The notes beneath the pieces are model-generated. The model had not been told where the DNA came from. It made no database searches and worked only from the letters and a program-made list of their open reading frames with translations. A DNA stretch of 47,899 nucleotides from a virus (Duplodnaviria; Caudoviricetes), in the IMG/VR virus record IMGVR_UViG_3300048599_000741, positions 1-47,899 of that record; one strand, written 5' to 3'. This document shows positions 1 through 47,899 of the stretch, in pieces (positions within the stretch are counted from its first letter, which is position 1; the number at the start of each line of letters is the position of its first letter). A program made the position numbers and the translations under genes.

Positions 1-127
1 GTGACCGTCTGGCCGGGCGGCAAACCGGGCACCGTGACGATCGAGATTGCGGGACGCCTTAGCCGGTTGCTCGGTGCCGATGTGTTCCCCTCGGCCCGCG
101 CATCGGGGGGATCGTTGGTAGCGGGGG
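1..127 (+). repeat. 127-bp exact direct repeat, copy 1 (3' part of the integrase up to the att crossover)
   Basis: 1-127 is identical to 47741-47867; the copies diverge at 128 (G) versus 47868 (A). Confidence 0.97.
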
Positions 128-189
128 GGCGCTTCCGCCAATCCCCCCGACCCGATTCCGGCCTGTTCCGGCTGCACCGGACGGGCTAG
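1..189 (+). CDS. C-terminal fragment of the serine integrase in its attP form (...LVAGGRFRQSPRPDSGLFRLHRTG*)
   Basis: First 42 codons are identical and in frame with the end of 46280..47899; not an independent gene. Confidence 0.85.
   Translation: MTVWPGGKPGTVTIEIAGRLSRLLGADVFPSARASGGSLVAGGRFRQSPRPDSGLFRLHRTG
103..150. other. attP site of the large serine integrase; crossover at or near GG 126-127
   Basis: Perfect 10-bp inverted repeat TCGGGGGGAT (103-112) / ATCCCCCCGA (141-150) centred on 126/127, where identity with the tRNA junction ends; carries the last 12 nt of the tRNA (116-127). Confidence 0.85.
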
Positions 190-222: not shown

Positions 223-456
223 ATGCGATATACGGCGCCGCCCCTGTCCGACTTCCCGTTCGATATGGTTCGGCTGGCCTGCACCCGCTGCCAGCGGCGC
301 GGCCAGTACCGCAAGGCGACCCTGATCGACCGGTTCGGTCCCGATATCGTCGGGCCGGACCTTCTGACCAAGATCGCCAATTGCACCGGCGGCATCACCT
401 CCGGGCAATGGAGCGCTTGCGGCATCTATTACCTCGATCTGGCGAAACCGAAATGA
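223..456 (+). CDS. Small Cys-rich (putative Zn-binding) hypothetical protein, 77 aa
   Basis: CxxC (CTRC) plus two distal Cys; ATGA overlap with the next gene. Confidence 0.75.
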   Translation: MRYTAPPLSDFPFDMVRLACTRCQRRGQYRKATLIDRFGPDIVGPDLLTKIANCTGGITSGQWSACGIYYLDLAKPK

Positions 457-722
457 CGGTCCGGCTCAAGCGCAAATCCGAGAACTGGCGCCGCCGGCTA
501 CCGCGGCCCGTCCGGCTGCGATCCGGCAAGACCTTGGCGACCCTCGCCGACTGCCGGGCCTATTGCCTCGACCTCGACGACTACGAAGCCGCGCGTCCGG
601 CCTGGCAGCGGACGGCGGCCATGCTGATCGAGGCCGCCGAGGGCGGCGATCTCGATCGGGTCAACCGCCAATTCGAGGCGATCCTGTTGCATCAGAACAA
701 GATCGCCCTGCCGCCGGACTAG
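453..722 (+). CDS. Hypothetical protein, 89 aa (MTVRLKRK...)
   Basis: ATG 453 overlaps the upstream TGA; PVRLRSGKTLATLADCRAY...WQ pattern resembles small Rhizobiales proteins. Confidence 0.7.
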   Translation: MTVRLKRKSENWRRRLPRPVRLRSGKTLATLADCRAYCLDLDDYEAARPAWQRTAAMLIEAAEGGDLDRVNRQFEAILLHQNKIALPPD

Positions 723-1201
723 GCCCGCCGTCGGGCCTTGCGCTTGCGGCGCGCTTCCTCGGCGCGGACCTGATCGAGCGTGCGCGCCGGCGTCTGTGTC
801 AGCTTCTTAGCCGCAGCGTGATAATCGCCGGCGGTGAAGGCCGCCAGCAGGTCCGCCGCCTTGTCCAGTTCATACCGGTCATCGATCAGGCAACCGGCCT
901 CCTTGGCGTCGAGCATGATCGCGGCGCAGGCCATCAGCTTGGCCTCATGCGGCAAGCCGCTGTCGGGATCGATGTCCTCGCCGGCATTGAGCGCGATCGC
1001 ATGGCGCAGGATCGCCTCGATATAAACCGAGCGCCGCACCTTTTTGCGGCGCCAGTTGAACGCGCCATATTTGCGCGCGCCTTCGGCGAAAGCCATCGCC
1101 ATCTGAATCAGCGCCACGAAGGGCACCAAGCACAGCGGCACCTTTTTGATGCCGAGCCGGTCTTTGGGATTGGTGTCGTCTTTGCGCGCGCGAGCGGGCA
1201 T
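719..1201 (-). CDS. dATP/dGTP diphosphohydrolase-domain protein (DUF5664-like)
   Basis: NPKD..G.KK.PL.LVP, GA.KYG..NWR, Y..A..RH and GED.DPDSGLPH motifs. Confidence 0.85.
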   Translation of the reverse strand: MPARARKDDTNPKDRLGIKKVPLCLVPFVALIQMAMAFAEGARKYGAFNWRRKKVRRSVYIEAILRHAIALNAGEDIDPDSGLPHEAKLMACAAIMLDAKEAGCLIDDRYELDKAADLLAAFTAGDYHAAAKKLTQTPARTLDQVRAEEARRKRKARRRA

Positions 1202-1234: not shown

Positions 1235-2479
1235 TCAGGCCGCACGGAAGGCCGGCGGCAGAATGTTGACGCGGTGCCGGCCGGTCTCGCCGGCGCGCCG
1301 ATGCAGCGTGATCGCGGTCAGAGATTGGCCGGACAGATAGGCCGAGCCGACCGCATGCGCATCCTTGGCGGCGAGCGTCTGGAATGACTCGACCTTGACG
1401 CCGCCGATTTCCTTGGCGGTTTCATGATGAATGTGGCCGGTGTAGAAATAGCGGAAGGCGCTGGCGCCCCAATCAGTCGGCCGCACGGCCGCCATTGTCG
1501 CGGCGAGCCGATCGGCCTTGGCGCGGTGGCCGTGATGCGCGCCGATCATCACGGCGCCGAAGCGATGAAAGAAAAACTCGCCGGGATCGTCATCGATCGT
1601 CACGCGCCGGTCGCGCGCATAGAACATCTTGAGCGCGATGGTCAGGGCGATCGCGGCATGCGGATCGTGATTGCCGGGAATATTGCGCACGATGACCTGC
1701 GCATGCCGGCGCTTCGCCGTCTCGATGCACTCAATCATGAGATCGACGCCGGCCGACAAAATCTTGAAATAGCGGCTGTCGACATCGAGCAGATTGCCGG
1801 ACCGCGGCGTCATGTTGCGCTGGTCGTCGGTATGCTGCCAGTCGCCGAGATTGAGAATGAGCGCGCGCCGCGACGGTTTCGACTGCGCGACCAGCGACGC
1901 CATGCTTTCGCGCAGCCGCTTGATGCCGATGGCGAGATCGTAAGCCTCGCCGGTTTCACGGCCCCAAGCCAAAAGGCCGTTATGCTGATCGGCGATCGGA
2001 TAGACCGTCAGATAATCGGCCAGCGATCGCCGCGGCGCCGGCGCCGGCCGCGCCTTGCCCTTGTACGCCTTGAACGTGGCCTCGAGCGCGGCGACCAGAT
2101 CGGGCGTCGCCGTATCGGTGCGCGTCTTGTGCCAGGTCAGGCGGGCGCGACCTTCGGCATCGGTCAGGACCGAGACACCTTTATAGACCTGGCCCGCCGG
2201 CATCTGGAAAGCCGGGCCGCTTTCCTGTTGCTGCTTGATCCATTCCTTTGTGAGGTTGCCGCCGGCGTCATATTCGGCGGTCGTCTGCTTGATCTCGAAA
2301 CCGGGCATCACCGGCTCGGTCGGCATCATGCCGCGTTCGGCCGCGCGCTTGAGCCGGTTGCGAAAGGTCGCGCGGCGAACGCCGGCCTCTTTCGCCGCGG
2401 GGCGGATTTTGCCGCCGTGTTTCTTGTAGAGCGCCGCGGCCTGCGCCGCGACCTCATCCGAGATTTGCGGAAATGACAT
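1235..2479 (-). CDS. N-terminal HTH + calcineurin-like metallophosphoesterase
   Basis: Motifs DQH, LGD, GNHD, HHGH and GHIHH; N-terminal IRPAAKEAGVRRATFRNRL helix-turn-helix. Confidence 0.85.
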   Translation of the reverse strand: MSFPQISDEVAAQAAALYKKHGGKIRPAAKEAGVRRATFRNRLKRAAERGMMPTEPVMPGFEIKQTTAEYDAGGNLTKEWIKQQQESGPAFQMPAGQVYKGVSVLTDAEGRARLTWHKTRTDTATPDLVAALEATFKAYKGKARPAPAPRRSLADYLTVYPIADQHNGLLAWGRETGEAYDLAIGIKRLRESMASLVAQSKPSRRALILNLGDWQHTDDQRNMTPRSGNLLDVDSRYFKILSAGVDLMIECIETAKRRHAQVIVRNIPGNHDPHAAIALTIALKMFYARDRRVTIDDDPGEFFFHRFGAVMIGAHHGHRAKADRLAATMAAVRPTDWGASAFRYFYTGHIHHETAKEIGGVKVESFQTLAAKDAHAVGSAYLSGQSLTAITLHRRAGETGRHRVNILPPAFRAA

Positions 2480-4853: not shown

Positions 4854-5456
4854 TCAGGTGCGATAGACATTGATGCCAAAACGAAGCGGATCGAAGCGGG
4901 AGCCATTCGCATCGAGGGCTTCCACGGTCACGTAGTCGACTTGCTTGTCGGTCTCGCGCAGGACGACGCCAGCGCCATGCACAAAGTATTGGGTATCCGG
5001 CTGCTCATTGATGAAATAGAGCGTGTAGAGGCCCATTTCCTCGTAGAACATGCCGATGGCGTTGAACGCTCCCTTGACTTGCTGCACGTCGCCATCTGCG
5101 ACGGATATGCTGAGAATTTGGGCGCTGAGCCGTGGCGGAACGCTGCCGAACTCAGGCTCGATATCTTCGGGGATCGGCGCGTTTTCGCGGACAGACTTCG
5201 CCACGATGATGTTCGAGAGATCGGCTATTACATCGTCGCCAAACGTCCACGGCATGTCGCCGCCGGCCAGCACATCGCCGGAGGTCGACAGCGGGTGACG
5301 GACACCCGGCTCGTACAGCCGTTCGCCGATGCCTTCCGGCAGCGATGGCGCAGCCTGCCCGTAATCGGCGGCGAAATTGTCCGGCGTGTCGACATAGACG
5401 CTGGAGCCCGATTGCACGCGAATGATCGAGGCGGCCTGCAGAAGCTGCGTGGTCAT
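4854..5456 (-). CDS. Hypothetical acidic protein, possible tail-fibre assembly/accessory protein
   Basis: ATGA-coupled to the tail fibre; protein-like composition. Confidence 0.6.
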   Translation of the reverse strand: MTTQLLQAASIIRVQSGSSVYVDTPDNFAADYGQAAPSLPEGIGERLYEPGVRHPLSTSGDVLAGGDMPWTFGDDVIADLSNIIVAKSVRENAPIPEDIEPEFGSVPPRLSAQILSISVADGDVQQVKGAFNAIGMFYEEMGLYTLYFINEQPDTQYFVHGAGVVLRETDKQVDYVTVEALDANGSRFDPLRFGINVYRT

Positions 5457-6667
5457 TTTTTCACCATCGCGTTGCCGATGAACGCGGTCGGCTGCATGTT
5501 GTTATGGGAGCCGTTGCTGCCCGATGCGGTGCCACTAATGGAGCCGGATGCAGAGACAGATGCGGACTGTGAAAAGGTTACGTTAGAGCCAGTGTTGCCA
5601 TTGGACGTGACGACGCTCTCGCCCTGAGGCGGGTCGGAAGACACATCGTTCGCGCGCGTCTTCGATATACTCACCGATGCCGTGCCCGTGACCGAGGCCG
5701 TGCCGGACACACTCATACTCGCCTGTTCGCCAGATGACAGCGTGTGCGTTTCCGCACCAACCGCCTTGCCCAAGGCGCGCGATGTCAAGCCGGCGCCGGC
5801 GCCGGCAATGGCAAGCGCGCGGCCGAGCGCCTTCGGCATCGACATACGGCAACCGGCCACCCATGCGTCGGCGGCCGAGCCTTGCGCGGCGCGAGTCGTC
5901 GCGCCGCCCGCCGATGTCAGCAGCGGGCATTCGGCATCGCCATAAGCGTAAAGATCGGTGAAGGTCGCCTGCGCATCAGCGTTTTCATAAGCCGCGCCGC
6001 TCCCGGTATTGCCGATGGTCTGATCGAGGAACATCAGCCAGCCGGCGGGCGCCGTCTGCTTGATGGTCAGTACAACGGTTCCTTGCGGGATGCCGCCAGC
6101 CAGCGCCGCGATCGCCTGGGCGACGCGCAATGCGGTCATGCCTTTGGTGTTTTCCGTGCCGGCTTCCGCCTCGGCCTGACTGGCGATAGCCGAGAAGATG
6201 CCATCGGCACCGGCGGCGCCGGTATCGCCGCGCGGAATGATGAAATTGAGAATGGCCGCAAGCGCCGTCCCGACATTCTCGACCTCGGCCTCTCTGCCCG
6301 GCGCGCCGGTCGTCACGTCGCCGATCGTGATCGTCGCCGCCGCGCCGGGATTGCCGCGCGGGATCGTGATGTCGAGCACGGCGGCGTTTTCAGTGCCGGC
6401 ATTGACGACCGCGGCATCGCTGCCCGCCGCGCCGGTCGTCACGTCGCCGATCGCGACCGTCGCCGCGACGCCGGGATTGCCGCGCGGGATGGTGATGTCG
6501 AGAACCGCCTGTTGCAGCGTTCCGACATTCACGACCTCGGCATCGCTGCCCGCCGCGCCGGTCGTCACGTCGCCGATCGCGATCGTGCCGGCCGGGCCGC
6601 GCGGCCCCTGATCGGGGACCTCGATCTCGATCGGCTGATCGTCGACAATGATTTCAAAGTCGCTCAT
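5453..6667 (-). CDS. Tail fibre protein with three 40-aa repeats and a collar-like C-terminal region
   Basis: Start MSDFEIIVDD overlaps the upstream stop; APAGWL, GRAL..AGAG.GLTSR.LG..GAETHTL and HNNMQPT motifs. Confidence 0.85.
   Translation of the reverse strand: MSDFEIIVDDQPIEIEVPDQGPRGPAGTIAIGDVTTGAAGSDAEVVNVGTLQQAVLDITIPRGNPGVAATVAIGDVTTGAAGSDAAVVNAGTENAAVLDITIPRGNPGAAATITIGDVTTGAPGREAEVENVGTALAAILNFIIPRGDTGAAGADGIFSAIASQAEAEAGTENTKGMTALRVAQAIAALAGGIPQGTVVLTIKQTAPAGWLMFLDQTIGNTGSGAAYENADAQATFTDLYAYGDAECPLLTSAGGATTRAAQGSAADAWVAGCRMSMPKALGRALAIAGAGAGLTSRALGKAVGAETHTLSSGEQASMSVSGTASVTGTASVSISKTRANDVSSDPPQGESVVTSNGNTGSNVTFSQSASVSASGSISGTASGSNGSHNNMQPTAFIGNAMVKK
6225..6590 (-). repeat. Three ~120-bp tandem repeats encoding IGDVTTGAAG...V.N.GT...A.L...IPRG
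   Basis: gcgccggtcgtcacgtcgccgatcg recurs with a 120-bp period (~6303, 6430 region, 6556 region); visible in the translation. Confidence 0.85.
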
Positions 6668-7149
6668 CGCGTCGGCCCGATGCTGTGAATGAGTTTGCCG
6701 GCCATCACCGGCAAATGCTCGCCGGTCGCCGTGATTTCGATCATGGACACGTCGTAGGAGCCGGCGGACATGACCGCGAGTTGCGCCTTGGGCAGCTTGA
6801 GCGTCACGGCGCCGGTTGCGGCGTCCGTGATCTCGATATCGCCGCCCTCCTCGCTGGTGACGGACAGCGGCGCGTAAACATTCACCGCCGGCGCGCGCGC
6901 CATAAGCTTGAGCGTCGAGCCGGTCAGGTCCCGGCCCGGCGCCGGCGCGGCTTCCCATTTGGTGCCGTCGCTGCCCGGCGTGACACCGGTCGAGGGCGCG
7001 AGCGCTTTCCAGACCCGCTTGCCGGAATGTGAGTATTCATCGGCGAGATAGGCGCGCTCGGCATCATAGGGCGGGACCGGCTGCGTAAAGCGCAGTGCCG
7101 TGATCCAATCCGCATCGCTGCGCGTGCGGATCGTGACTTGCATCGTCAT
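6664..7149 (-). CDS. Tail/baseplate-associated protein with an inserted CBM5/12-like motif
   Basis: YDAERAY...HSGKRVWKAL....G..PGSD..KWE inside a DLTG...ITDAATG...YDV scaffold. Confidence 0.6.
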   Translation of the reverse strand: MTMQVTIRTRSDADWITALRFTQPVPPYDAERAYLADEYSHSGKRVWKALAPSTGVTPGSDGTKWEAAPAPGRDLTGSTLKLMARAPAVNVYAPLSVTSEEGGDIEITDAATGAVTLKLPKAQLAVMSAGSYDVSMIEITATGEHLPVMAGKLIHSIGPTR

Positions 7150-30148: not shown

Positions 30149-30426
30149 ATGACGCAATGACGGATCAATGACGCATTGATTTTCGATGTGTCATTGAATT
30201 TTGTTTTGTCAGATCAAGACGTTCCTTGTTTTCATGACGCAATGACGGATCAACTGACATCTATACATAAGAGATTTTTTCAGACGCCCCCTACCCCGCT
30301 TGCTTATAGACGCGCGCGCGAAAGAAGCGTCATTGCGTCATGGATCGCGTCAACCTGTTGCGCCGCCTTCCCTTTCACCCATGACGCATGAAAATCGGAT
30401 GCGTCATTGATGCGTCATTGCGTCAT
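30149..30426. repeat. Iteron array (ATGACGCA consensus), putative replication origin
   Basis: At least 12 copies, e.g. + at 30149, 30157, 30168, 30234, 30242, 30381 and - at 30187, 30326, 30334, 30400, 30411, 30419; AT-rich; directly downstream of the helicase. Confidence 0.85.
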
Positions 30427-42863: not shown

Positions 42864-43045
42864 GCAAGCCCGACTTAGGGAACTCTCCCCGCTGTTCTGC
42901 CCGGTAAAGCCGTCCGGCGAATCAACGGGAACCTAGTTGCCCGTAAGTTGCCAAAATGGCATCATTCGTCAAGACGATGTTGCCGGCTGAAAGTGCGTTA
43001 ATGGAAATAGCAATTTCGCATCAAAGGTTTATTCCTGTGGCCACC

Positions 43046-43735
43046 ATGACAAGGCGGCCGCACAAAGTTTCCTTTGAGGCATCGCACGGTGACGACGGCG
43101 CGGCCGACTCGCCGCGCGCGCTGCAGCAATTCGTGCAAAATAAATTGAAAATTTTACCGCGTGGCACCGCCAAAGAACTGGCGAAGGCGCTACACTTACA
43201 ACCTACGGATATCTCGAAGATCGTCAGCGGTCGTCGCAAGGTCCAAGGCCATGAAGTGATGCCCATTCGCGAATTTTTCCAGCGCCTTGAGGGGGCTTAC
43301 GGGGCATCGTCGGCACGGCAGAATCAGAACGGCCTTGTTCCTGTCATCGGCTATGTGGGCGCGGGCGATCGCCAGCGCATTTATGATGTCGATGCGGGGT
43401 TTATCGAGGAAGTCGAGGCGCCGGGCCAGATGGCAGACGACACCATTGCCCTTGAGATTCGCGGCAACAGTCTCGGCCCAGCCTTCAATGGCGGCTATGT
43501 GTTCTACAGCGAGCAACCGCACGGCGACATCGCGCAGGTTGTCGGTGATCTTTGCGTCGTGCGCACGTCTGACGGCGCCACCTATGTCAAGACGGTTGAG
43601 CCTGGCGCTACCCCCGAAACCTTTACCCTGATTTCAATTCAGGGCGAGCCGATCGAGAATGTCGCCCTCGAATGGGCAGTTCCGGTGCTGGCCGTAACAC
43701 CGCGGCGCCGGCGTTTTTCCGTGCGTGCATCCTGA
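43046..43735 (+). CDS. CI-like repressor (HTH + S24 autopeptidase); start uncertain (42956/43001/43046)
   Basis: AKELAKAL.LQPTDISKIVSGRRK HTH; VGAG cleavage-site region; IRGNS (Ser) and YVK (Lys). Confidence 0.9.
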   Translation: MTRRPHKVSFEASHGDDGAADSPRALQQFVQNKLKILPRGTAKELAKALHLQPTDISKIVSGRRKVQGHEVMPIREFFQRLEGAYGASSARQNQNGLVPVIGYVGAGDRQRIYDVDAGFIEEVEAPGQMADDTIALEIRGNSLGPAFNGGYVFYSEQPHGDIAQVVGDLCVVRTSDGATYVKTVEPGATPETFTLISIQGEPIENVALEWAVPVLAVTPRRRRFSVRAS

Positions 43736-45343: not shown

Positions 45344-45513
45344 TCCGCAGCGCCGCACGCTCCACATCAATGGAAGCCGCCGGCGAGCGTCCCGTCGATC
45401 CCGCTGTGCTGGCGTTGGCGCGCGCGATGGCGCGCCTTGCCGCGCGCGAAGATCATGCCGCCGAACAGGCGGCCATCAATCGCAACCGTCACAGCACAGG
45501 AGGCAAACCGTGA
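45340..45513 (+). CDS. 57-aa helical protein (DPAVLALARAMARLAAREDH)
   Basis: Coupled on both sides. Confidence 0.6.
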   Translation: MIRSAARSTSMEAAGERPVDPAVLALARAMARLAAREDHAAEQAAINRNRHSTGGKP

Positions 45514-46279: not shown

Positions 46280-47899
46280 ATGCGCGCCGCCATCTACGCC
46301 CGATTTTCCAGCGACCGGCAGAACGATCGATCGAACGCCGATCAGATCGCGCTTGTCACCGACTATTGCGCGCGCCAAGGCTGGCAGGTCGTCGCCGTCT
46401 ATCAGGATCACGCTCTGTCCGGCGCCTCGATCATCGGCCGTGCCGATATGCAGCGGCTGTTGACGGATGCACGCGAGCGGCGCTTCGATATCGTCGTCGC
46501 CGATTCCTTGAGCCGCATCGGCCGCGACGAAGAAGATCGCGCCGGCATCCGCAAGCGCCTCGCCTTCAATGACGTGCAGATCGCGACGCCGGTCGACGGC
46601 ATCGTGACGCGGCTGGTCGACGGCATCCGCGCCGTCATGGACGGCAATTATCTGGAGGATTTGAAGCACGCGACGCGGCGCGGCATGGCCGGGCGTGTGC
46701 GCGACGGCTTGAGCGCCGGCGGACAGGCTTACGGTTATCGCGCGGTGCCGGGAGCGCCGGGCACGCGGACGATCGAGGCGCAGGAAGCCGAGATCGTGCG
46801 CGAGATTTTCGCGCGCTACGTCGCCGGCGAAACGCCGCGGACGATCGCGGCCGATCTCAATCGCCGCAGCATCGCGCCGCCGCGCGGGCGGCAGTGGAAT
46901 GCGTCGACCATCAACGGCAGCCGCCAGCGGTCGACCGGCATTCTGGAAAACGAACTCTATGCCGGCCGCATTGTCTGGAACAAAGTACGGATGGTCAAAG
47001 ACCCCGACACCGGCAAGCGCATTTCGCGGCCGAACCCATCCGGCGAGTGGCATGTCAAGGAAGCGGCCGACCTGGCGATCGTCGATCGCGCGACATTCGA
47101 CAAGGCGCAGGCGATCAAGGCCGGCAGGCGCGCCTATCCGCCGCACGTCACGCGGCAGCCGAAACGCATCCTGTCCGGCCTCTTGCGCTGCGGCGCCTGC
47201 GGCGGCGGACTGTCGATCAAGGGCCGCGATCATGACGGCACGATCCGCGTGCGCTGTTCAAGCCATCACGAAGGCCGCAGATGCCCGCAACCGCATTCAT
47301 TCAAACTGGAAACGATCGAGGCGCAGACCTTGGCCGGGCTGCGCGCGGAATTTGAGCGTCCGGCGGTGCTGGCCGAGTATGTCCGCGAGTATCACGCCGA
47401 GCGCAAGCGCCTCGCCGGCGATACATCGAAGCGGCGCGGCGAGATCGAACGGCGCATCGGCGAGATCGAGCGCGCCATCGCGCGCGCGACCGATGCACTG
47501 TTGAACGGCATCGGCGACCGCATCGAGATCGACGCGCGGTGCAAGGCGCTGCGCGCCGAGCATACCGATCTTGGCGCCGAACTGGCGGCGCTGCCGGACA
47601 CGCAACAGGTTGTCGCGCTACACCCGGCCGCGGTCGATCGCTATCTGCGCCAGGTCGCCATCCTTGAAACGCGGCTGCCGCAGGTCGTCACCGCCGGCGA
47701 TCAGGAAGCGATCGCGGCGATCCGTGACCTTGTGGAAAGCGTGACCGTCTGGCCGGGCGGCAAACCGGGCACCGTGACGATCGAGATTGCGGGACGCCTT
47801 AGCCGGTTGCTCGGTGCCGATGTGTTCCCCTCGGCCCGCGCATCGGGGGGATCGTTGGTAGCGGGGGAGGGACTTGAACCCCCGACCTACGGATTATGA
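46280..47899 (+). CDS. Large serine integrase (resolvase + recombinase + Zn-ribbon/coiled-coil), integrated-state form
   Basis: YARFSS catalytic Ser, D.ALSG....R, SRIGRD, YGY, IL.NELY.G, LSGLLRCG.CGG. Confidence 0.96.
   Translation: MRAAIYARFSSDRQNDRSNADQIALVTDYCARQGWQVVAVYQDHALSGASIIGRADMQRLLTDARERRFDIVVADSLSRIGRDEEDRAGIRKRLAFNDVQIATPVDGIVTRLVDGIRAVMDGNYLEDLKHATRRGMAGRVRDGLSAGGQAYGYRAVPGAPGTRTIEAQEAEIVREIFARYVAGETPRTIAADLNRRSIAPPRGRQWNASTINGSRQRSTGILENELYAGRIVWNKVRMVKDPDTGKRISRPNPSGEWHVKEAADLAIVDRATFDKAQAIKAGRRAYPPHVTRQPKRILSGLLRCGACGGGLSIKGRDHDGTIRVRCSSHHEGRRCPQPHSFKLETIEAQTLAGLRAEFERPAVLAEYVREYHAERKRLAGDTSKRRGEIERRIGEIERAIARATDALLNGIGDRIEIDARCKALRAEHTDLGAELAALPDTQQVVALHPAAVDRYLRQVAILETRLPQVVTAGDQEAIAAIRDLVESVTVWPGGKPGTVTIEIAGRLSRLLGADVFPSARASGGSLVAGEGLEPPTYGL
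47741..47867 (+). repeat. 127-bp exact direct repeat, copy 2, ending at the phage-host crossover
   Basis: Identical to 1-127. Confidence 0.97.
47856..47899 (-). tRNA. 3' half of a host tRNA with CAU anticodon (probably tRNA-Met; Ile2 not excluded), truncated by the window edge; integration target
   Basis: Reverse complement TCATAATCCGTAGGTCGGGGGTTCAAGTCCCTCCCCCGCTACCA: CAT at canonical 34-36, T-loop TTCAAGT, CCA end. Confidence 0.9.

What the first reader, a model, noticed from the sequence alone, without database searches (positions are those of the whole stretch)
1..189. attP lies inside the integrase gene, so integration swaps the integrase C-terminus
Seen: the same integrase frame ends ...GGSLVAG-GRFRQSPRPDSGLFRLHRTG* at the left (attP, 549 aa in total). 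It ends ...GGSLVAG-EGLEPPTYGL* at the right (47868-47899, 539 aa), where the last 10 residues and the stop are read from the antisense strand of the host tRNA. Known: in some mycobacteriophages an attP inside the repressor gene changes a C-terminal degron. Inference: the two tails could differ in stability or directionality, giving a self-rewriting integration/excision switch.
Basis: partly seen in the sequence, partly recalled or inferred. Interest (0 to 1): 0.8.

Follow-up and report, generated by a model that had tools for sequence, protein, structure and literature searches.

The report
Integrase cuts off its own clamp
A bacterial virus carries its DNA insertion site inside the end of its own integrase gene, so inserting into a host tRNA gene replaces the enzyme's last 20 residues with 10 read off the tRNA, and the lost piece is predicted to clamp the hinge that sets whether the enzyme inserts or excises, which would make insertion itself the switch.

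Summary
Observation confirmed. The window is a temperate myophage genome. Its large serine integrase (46280-47899) runs through its own att site at the 3' end of tRNA-Met(CAT). The crossover maps to GG 126-127 / 47866-47867, giving 549-aa (attP) and 539-aa (integrated) forms. The design is family-wide in Alphaproteobacteria: 158 of 233 full-length related loci end in tRNA-antisense tails.

The free-form tail is conserved as protein: about 24 residues, a hydrophobic end, synonymous bias even when stranded at attL, and often Ala-ending (31 of 63 versus 0 of 67 integrated forms). This phage's own tail ends TG.

Two structure models place the tail's last residues as an extra beta-strand at the zinc-domain/coiled-coil hinge, where the SPbeta directionality factor (RDF) binds (complex score 0.70, best control 0.02). 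A small unannotated gene abutting these integrases is a candidate RDF. Best reading, untested: the attP form is clamped for integration and integration removes the clamp. A ClpXP degron is the main rival.

att-in-integrase is published (Mx8, DsiB, rumA ICEs), and this scan noted it on other DNA. The hinge-strand reading was not found in my searches.

The parts
46280..47899 (+). Large serine integrase gene, integrated (attR-type) form, 539 aa: Resolvase + Recombinase + zinc-ribbon domains with coiled coil
   Evidence: fold matches SPbeta, phiC31, Bxb1 and LI integrases
47866..47867 (+). Crossover dinucleotide GG of the integrated junction (phage arm | tRNA arm)
   Evidence: last two bases of identity with 1-127
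47868..47899 (+). Host-derived arm: encodes the last 10 residues and the stop of the integrated form
47856..47899 (-). 3' 44 nt of tRNA-Met(CAT), anticodon loop to CCA; the last 12 nt (47856-47867) are the phage-carried copy that restores the tRNA
   Evidence: up to 42 of 44 identical to tRNA-Met genes of relatives; ARAGORN tRNA-Met at the same offset in relatives
101..152 (+). attP-type site: imperfect inverted repeat centred on GG 126-127, with the 12-nt tRNA 3'-end copy at 116-127
   Evidence: 17 of 25 symmetric matches, neighbouring centres 7-8
128..189 (+). attP-form tail, 20 residues plus stop; its LFRL segment corresponds to the predicted docking beta-strand
   Evidence: strand predicted on the 84%-identical natural attP-form relative P0003
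1..127 (+). Exact duplicate of 47741-47867 (integrase codons before the crossover), likely a k=127 assembly overlap at the att branch point
   Evidence: 5 of 27 near-end viral att hits also end their dinucleotide at base 127
45370..45513 (+). 47-aa ORF with a conserved ARALAR-x-AAREDH-type motif; candidate recombination directionality factor (inferred from co-location only)
   Evidence: no Pfam, PHROG or NCBIfam hit

Best explanation
This phage's large serine integrase gene contains its own attP, so integration at the 3' end of tRNA-Met swaps a conserved 20-residue tail for 10 tRNA-antisense residues, and the lost tail is predicted to add a beta-strand at the zinc-domain/coiled-coil hinge that likely holds the free-phage enzyme in the integrating state, while the tail-less prophage enzyme would leave that hinge open to a small candidate RDF and so be able to excise. 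Shown: the two junctions, the crossover position, the family-wide swap and protein-level conservation of the tail. Predicted by models: the strand and its docking place. Inferred: that the docking biases direction, and that the 47-aa gene is the RDF. The frequent Ala end may add a ClpXP handle in many relatives. The arrangement would also let an RDF gene overlap the integrase start, as in most related loci, without blocking integration.
For: Swap. Tail type is unclustered on a tree of integrase bodies (43 changes, shuffled mean 43.6), as expected of a state and not a lineage. Free-phage records RR1-A and Mae-JY30 carry the non-tRNA tail. Conservation: 40 of 43 attL-stranded tails are 17-32 residues, median 24 as in the window. 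Codons 14-24, outside the 25-bp att arm, show 801 synonymous to 705 non-synonymous single-base differences, against 168:1111 and 266:966 in shifted frames (pairs not independent). Hydrophobic residues at -10..-3 average 3.06 against 2.07 background and 1.57 in integrated tails. Structure: AlphaFold2 with 53 attP-type rows gives strand 543-549, last-block pLDDT 73, after a low-confidence linker. Complex of body 283-515 with tail 519-550 scores 0.70, best control 0.02; the mark was reached by 116 of 157 solved and 2 of 215 mismatched pairs; contacts agree at least 65%; partner pLDDT 49-52. Tail 542-550 runs antiparallel on strand 499-509 and touches 350-358, 364-365, 368-369 and 372. By the alignment these are about SPbeta L374, D379 (hinge 1), L385/I389, M392/L393 and Y396, the inter-hinge segment that the RDF displaces (bioRxiv 10.1101/2025.01.03.631226, passages). 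The window keeps LFRL although it lacks the Ala end. Candidate RDF: 125 of 138 hits end within -60..+130 nt of the integrase start; 23 of 27 genome-wide matches abut such an integrase.
Against: No experiment. The docking was modelled on relative P0003, not on the window's own attP form, and the integrated tail was not modelled the same way. With a mixed 25-row alignment (12 attP-type, 13 tRNA-type) the tail had pLDDT 24 and no strand. The complex used two parts of one protein with the same alignment, and the partner's fold is uncertain overall. A model cannot give the sign of the effect: in SPbeta the C-terminal F532 helps excision. The RDF assignment rests on co-location from a profile seeded at integrase-upstream regions. 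In the window that gene lies about 770 nt upstream, not overlapping. Many non-tRNA tails in the family are shorter, longer or divergent.
Confidence: 0.5

Rival explanations
1. The attP tail is mainly a ClpXP-type degron. The free-phage integrase is short-lived, which ties lysogeny to host protease state and limits re-integration after excision, and integration removes the tag and stabilises the enzyme.
For: Among 130 full-length representatives at 50% identity, 31 of 63 non-tRNA tails end in Ala and 17 in Ala-Ala, against 0 of 67 tRNA-type tails. Backgrounds: 59 and 24 of 455 long ORFs, 48 and 18 of 177 viral ORFs, 7 and 2 of 47 window ORFs; p from 0.003 to 3e-10. All four Ala codons and all three stops are used. 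Ala ends also occur in the other reading frame. Hydrophobic residues before terminal Ala-Ala make strong E. coli ClpXP tags (PMC10862746, passages). BPs integrase carries such a tag (PMC3694055, passages).
Against: The window's tail ends HRTG. Among attL-stranded tails the enrichment falls with de-duplication: 31 of 43 per genome, 13 of 31 at 70%, 5 of 20 at 50%, the last not above the other open frame (7 of 20) or background (p = 0.17). About half of non-tRNA tails do not end in Ala. Small terminal residues could serve packing against the hinge helix. Not exclusive with the best explanation.
Confidence: 0.22
2. Reverse polarity, as in Mx8: the tail completes the RDF pocket or raises overall activity, so the integrated form is a weak enzyme that stabilises the prophage, and the first excision restores the full enzyme.
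For: Same docking result. In SPbeta, C-terminal F532/F534 contact the RDF and F532 is needed for excision (passage). The Mx8 integrated form is less active (PMC4701971, passage). A full-function-only-when-circular idea was raised for DsiB (PMC3146451, passage).
Against: SPbeta 532-534 map to about residues 508-510, inside the shared body (model 1-513 aligns with chain 11-537; range only). A prophage must excise with the integrated form, and phiPam-6, a serine-recombinase prophage at tRNA-Met, is inducible (PMC3925955, passage; its integrase was not compared here).
Confidence: 0.17
3. The overlap is a compact-genome accident: the tail is neutral and both isoforms behave alike.
For: The first half of the tail is dictated by the att dyad. 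The integrated tail is dictated by the tRNA and occurs in more than one frame (146 versus 12 loci). The known LSR fold ends before the crossover.
Against: Synonymous bias, fixed length, hydrophobic and Ala enrichment beyond the att arm, and a confident docking model.
Confidence: 0.09
4. The left junction is an assembly artefact and no attP form exists.
For: The repeat is exactly 127 nt, a common k-mer length; no reads covered the junction.
Against: Dyad symmetry centred on the break. An 84%-identical natural protein, P0003, has nearly the same tail. Free-phage records carry such tails.
Confidence: 0.02

Closest known systems
Myxococcus phage Mx8 integrase (PMC6070905 and PMC4701971, passages)
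   Same: attP inside int; integration rewrites the C-terminus; the two forms differ in activity.
   Different: Tyrosine recombinase; 112 residues replaced by 13. Here a serine integrase swaps 20 for 10, and the lost part is predicted to sit at the serine-integrase RDF hinge.
Dehalococcoides DsiB (PMC3146451, passages) and streptococcal rumA-ICE serine integrases (PMC4701971, passages)
   Same: Large serine recombinase genes that overlap their own att site at the 3' end; the authors suggested a functional or regulatory difference.
   Different: Targets are tmRNA and rumA. DsiB tails were described as divergent. The passages read give no conserved tail, degron or hinge mechanism. I did not compare their sequences with this integrase.
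SPbeta SprA with its RDF, and other phage large serine integrases (bioRxiv 10.1101/2025.01.03.631226, passages; PDB 9dxh, 9dxd)
   Same: Same fold (Z 18.6, rmsd 22.5, 477 aligned); direction set by an RDF at the DBD2/coiled-coil hinge; the integrase C-terminus is called part of a toggle.
   Different: As far as I recall, their C-terminus is not changed by integration. The swapped tail here lies beyond the part aligned to SPbeta.
Mycobacteriophage BPs integration-dependent immunity (PMC3694055, passages)
   Same: Integration removes a C-terminal tail encoded across attP; proteolysis tags on Rep and Int.
   Different: attP is in the repressor gene and no RDF is used. Here attP is in int, a separate CI-like gene exists (42956-43735), and a degron is only suggested.
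Paracoccus phage phiPam-6 (PMC3925955, PMC6536676, passages) and Rhizobium phage RR1-A
   Same: phiPam-6: inducible serine-recombinase prophage at tRNA-Met with a 17-bp repeat of the tRNA 3' end. RR1-A: 44% identical integrase with a non-tRNA, Ala-ending tail.
   Different: The passages read do not mention att inside the gene or a tail swap.

Membership tests
Phage large serine integrase | Resolvase, Recombinase and zinc-ribbon domains in order | tested here: met
   fold matches
Phage large serine integrase | Short att site with inverted repeat around a central dinucleotide shared by partner sites | tested here: met
   41 of 43 attL/attR pairs share the dinucleotide (pairs were chosen for symmetry at this centre and the search pattern fixed part of it)
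Phage large serine integrase | RDF needed for excision | tested here: inconclusive
   candidate gene by co-location only; binding not modelled
Phage large serine integrase | Recombination activity in vitro or in vivo | not testable with these tools
   both junction types are in the record, which implies past activity
att-inside-integrase systems (Mx8, DsiB, rumA ICE type) | Crossover inside the integrase coding sequence; C-terminus differs between free and integrated states | tested here: met
att-inside-integrase systems (Mx8, DsiB, rumA ICE type) | The two isoforms differ in activity | not testable with these tools
   only models
Mx8 integrase family proper | Tyrosine recombinase | tested here: not met
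   serine recombinase domains
Integration-dependent immunity (BPs type) | attP inside the repressor gene | tested here: not met
   attP is in int; the CI-like gene is at 42956-43735
ssrA-like ClpXP degron | Terminal Ala-Ala after hydrophobic residues | tested here: not met
   the window tail ends HRTG; 17 of 63 family tails do end in Ala-Ala
ssrA-like ClpXP degron | ClpXP-dependent degradation | not testable with these tools
   needs half-life assays

The most novel reading that the evidence does not exclude
A widespread family of tRNA-Met serine integrases encodes its own anti-RDF as a terminal beta-strand across attP. The free element makes an integration-locked, RDF-proof and often short-lived enzyme, and integration deletes the clamp and creates the excisionase-ready form. 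Direction is thus written in the DNA state, and integrase and a new 50-residue RDF can be made from one operon.
Probability: 0.4. Interest if true: 0.85.

Novelty: new variant of a known kind. Interest (0 to 1): 0.7.

Why it matters
How serine integrases control direction is an active structural question. A natural isoform pair that differs only by a strand predicted at the RDF hinge gives a direct test, with hundreds of family members and a candidate new RDF family. It also matters for tool mining: most database entries of this family are the integrated form (158 of 233 loci here), so an enzyme cloned from a prophage annotation would lack the tail that the infecting phage uses. The family also shows serine integrases targeting tRNA genes at scale, which the 2014 Islander paper (PMC4383910, passage) said was not known, though phiPam-6 was one reported case.

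Tried and rejected
Reads: two small-share runs were listed and laid; neither covered the junction, and no RNA holder was listed. This is no evidence either way. A homologue search with the C-terminal region 455-550 of P0003 returned only itself. attL search in 10-kb flanks found one convincing site, L151, so whole-genome pattern search was used instead. The 'other frames' control is weak because one frame stops at once (TAG); I rely on ORF backgrounds and the remaining frame. The promoter/terminator scan near int was at chance level. Atlas hits for the 47-aa ORF were all under 0.9, leads only. Other neighbouring window ORFs had no relatives in the loci, apart from 4 HTH hits. The first tree did not finish and was redone with FastTree. 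Binding of the candidate RDF was not modelled. Three papers could not be read because they are not held: two look-ups, by ids I recalled, for the 2020 regulated-gene-integrity paper, and Magrini 1999 on Mx8. They, and supplements I did not open, may already describe this family. I rejected the 127-nt repeat as a biological att core and a specific function for the tRNA-derived tail.

Full report
What the window is. The record is one 47,899-base virus contig. PHROG hits give terminase, portal, capsid/protease, tail sheath, tape measure, baseplate, endolysin, primases, a methylase and a CI-like repressor, so it is a temperate myophage. Named relatives of its integrase are almost all Alphaproteobacteria. 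ORF 46280-47899 is a large serine integrase.

Observation. Bases 1-127 equal 47741-47867 and then diverge. The right copy continues into 10 residues and a stop. The minus strand of 47856-47899 is the 3' half of tRNA-Met(CAT), up to 42 of 44 identical to relatives' genes. The left copy continues for 20 residues, 549 aa in all. The left junction has a dyad (17 of 25) centred on GG 126-127, the last shared bases; 3 of about 47,800 centres reach 17. This is the anatomy of a serine-integrase attP. The 127-nt length is most likely the assembler's k-mer at the branch point (inference): 5 of 27 viral att hits near contig ends also end their dinucleotide at base 127. Reads did not cover the junction, so circle versus tandem prophage is open.

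The family. Of 249 loci, 233 reached the C-terminal region. Of these, 158 continue into tRNA antisense (146 in the xVA frame, 12 in the GSG frame), 44 carry the core without the tRNA, and 31 had no core by my pattern. Free-phage records RR1-A and Mae-JY30 have non-tRNA tails. The best homologue, P0003 (84% identical), is a natural attP form with nearly the window's tail. On a FastTree of 132 integrase bodies with tails removed, the tRNA-type label needs 43 changes against a shuffled mean of 43.6, so it records a state and not a lineage.

Hidden tails. A pattern for core plus start of the P' arm matched 82 places in 44 of 50 genomes, against 13 for the reversed control. I examined 80; two were scar sites already held. 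Sixty-one mirror the phage arm of the same genome's integrase at 15 or more of 25. Taking the best per genome (43), 40 tails are 17-32 residues, median 24 from xVA as in the window, and 31 end in Ala. Codons 14-24 of the 27 tails of 24 residues show 801 synonymous to 705 non-synonymous single-base differences, against 168:1111 and 266:966 in shifted frames. These pairs are not independent, but the tail is evidently read as protein although it is separated from its gene in the chromosome.

Ala ends. Among 150 representatives at 50% identity, 130 were 505-600 aa. By rules I wrote after viewing the tails, 63 are non-tRNA (31 end in Ala, 17 in Ala-Ala) and 67 are tRNA-type (none ends in Ala). Backgrounds are 59 of 455, 48 of 177 (may include integrase fragments) and 7 of 47, all lower. 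For DNA-defined attP genes, 44 were selected, 4 scars dropped, 26 remained at 50% de-duplication and 2 were open-ended: 11 of 24 end in Ala. Against: attL tails fall to 13 of 31 and 5 of 20 on de-duplication, the last not significant, and the window's tail ends TG. Ala-Ala after hydrophobic residues is the strong ClpXP tag in E. coli (PMC10862746, passages). I found no passage for Gly ends in Caulobacter; I recall such substrates but did not verify them.

Structure. With a mixed alignment AlphaFold2 left 508-550 of P0003 disordered. With 53 attP-type rows it kept 514-540 disordered but built strand 543-549, last-block pLDDT 73. A two-chain prediction of body 283-515 with tail 519-550 scored 0.70 against a best control of 0.02. 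The mark was reached by 116 of 157 solved and 2 of 215 mismatched pairs, contacts agreed at 65% or more, and partner pLDDT was 49-52. F544 and L546 pair antiparallel with strand 499-509 and touch 350-358, 364-365, 368-369 and 372. Reading the profile alignment to SPbeta integrase, these correspond to about L374, D379, L385/I389, M392/L393 and Y396. The cryo-EM preprint (10.1101/2025.01.03.631226, passages) places hinge 1 at 379-380 and says the 381-397 helix packs on DBD2 without RDF and is displaced by the RDF. SPbeta aligns only to model residue 513, so the strand is extra to that structure; two phiC31 rows run to 541, which I could not inspect. The pass is a model of two parts of one protein with my own alignment. 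It supports docking and does not show it, nor the direction of any effect. The window's body is near-identical at these positions and keeps LFRL.

Candidate RDF. A profile seeded from integrase-upstream ORFs hit 138 loci plus the window at 45370-45513 (230 loci had over 600 nt upstream). Of the 138, 125 end within -60..+130 nt of the integrase start and 106 overlap it. In 20 whole genomes, 23 of 27 matches abut an integrase of this family by my reading of the coordinates. The genomes were chosen for holding the integrase, so the useful control is the rarity elsewhere. It has no library hit. That it is the RDF is inference from size and position.

Mechanism. Most likely (0.5): on infection or after excision the gene is read through attP and the tail strand staples the inter-hinge helix to the zinc domain, favouring integration and excluding the RDF. 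Crossover at GG restores the tRNA's 3' end, strands the tail at attL, and ends the gene at the TGA opposite the anticodon loop. The tail-less enzyme can then take the RDF and excise. Rivals: degron removal (0.22, compatible with the first), reverse polarity with a weakened prophage enzyme (0.17), neutral overlap (0.09), artefact (0.02).

Known systems. att inside the integrase gene is published for Mx8 (PMC6070905, PMC4383910, PMC4701971; passages), streptococcal rumA ICEs and Dehalococcoides DsiB (PMC3146451; passages). A serine-recombinase phage at tRNA-Met is published (PMC3925955, PMC6536676; passages). Degron removal by integration is published for the BPs repressor (PMC3694055; passages). 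PMC8627217 and PMC12884075 (passages) added nothing on tails. This scan noted the serine/tRNA-Met architecture on other genomes (8 notes shown); word searches for degron or hinge-strand readings gave none. Ten literature searches (listings only) showed no title or abstract on a swapped tail acting at the RDF hinge. The library lacks most subscription papers, three look-ups failed, and I opened no supplements.

Verdict. Real, family-wide, and a known architecture, with a new, testable mechanism suggested by conservation and two models. New variant of a known kind; interest 0.7.

Noticed in passing
L124 11579-11670, L160, L166, L169 (also seen in the tails of L144, L153, L155): Two att cores only 57 nt apart at the integrase end (phage arm, GG, short P' and P arms, GG, tRNA): apparently a second element collapsed to its att arms, giving a doubled C-terminal tail.
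   Followed up: partly
L496, L537, L237, L242: Integrase ends joined to P'-type arms of low self-symmetry inside chromosomes or contigs, likely tandem arrays in which an inner element's integrase regains a tail from its neighbour.
   Followed up: no
L198, L200: Related integrases end just before a tRNA-Thr(TGT) instead of tRNA-Met: a target switch within the family.
   Followed up: no
L005, L006, L009: Shorter related integrases with no att core in their gene end also finish in basic residues plus Ala, which fits a general degron on free-form integrases.
   Followed up: no
window 30149-30426: 46-nt inverted repeat (83%) with repeated ATGACGCA motifs just past the primase/helicase gene, a possible replication origin.
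   Followed up: no
window 6213-6599: Three 126-nt-spaced repeats inside tail gene 5453-6958.
   Followed up: no
window 719-1201 (-) and 1235-2479 (-): dATP/dGTP diphosphohydrolase-domain gene and exonuclease-family gene beside attP; both products end in basic residues plus Ala.
   Followed up: no
window 223-456 and 453-722 (+): Two small ORFs without library hits directly after the attP tail, the first Cys-rich; no relatives in the fetched loci.
   Followed up: partly
L008, L009: Two phages deposited with a cyanobacterial host label carry integrases of this mostly alphaproteobacterial family (47% and 33% identity), which questions the host label.
   Followed up: no
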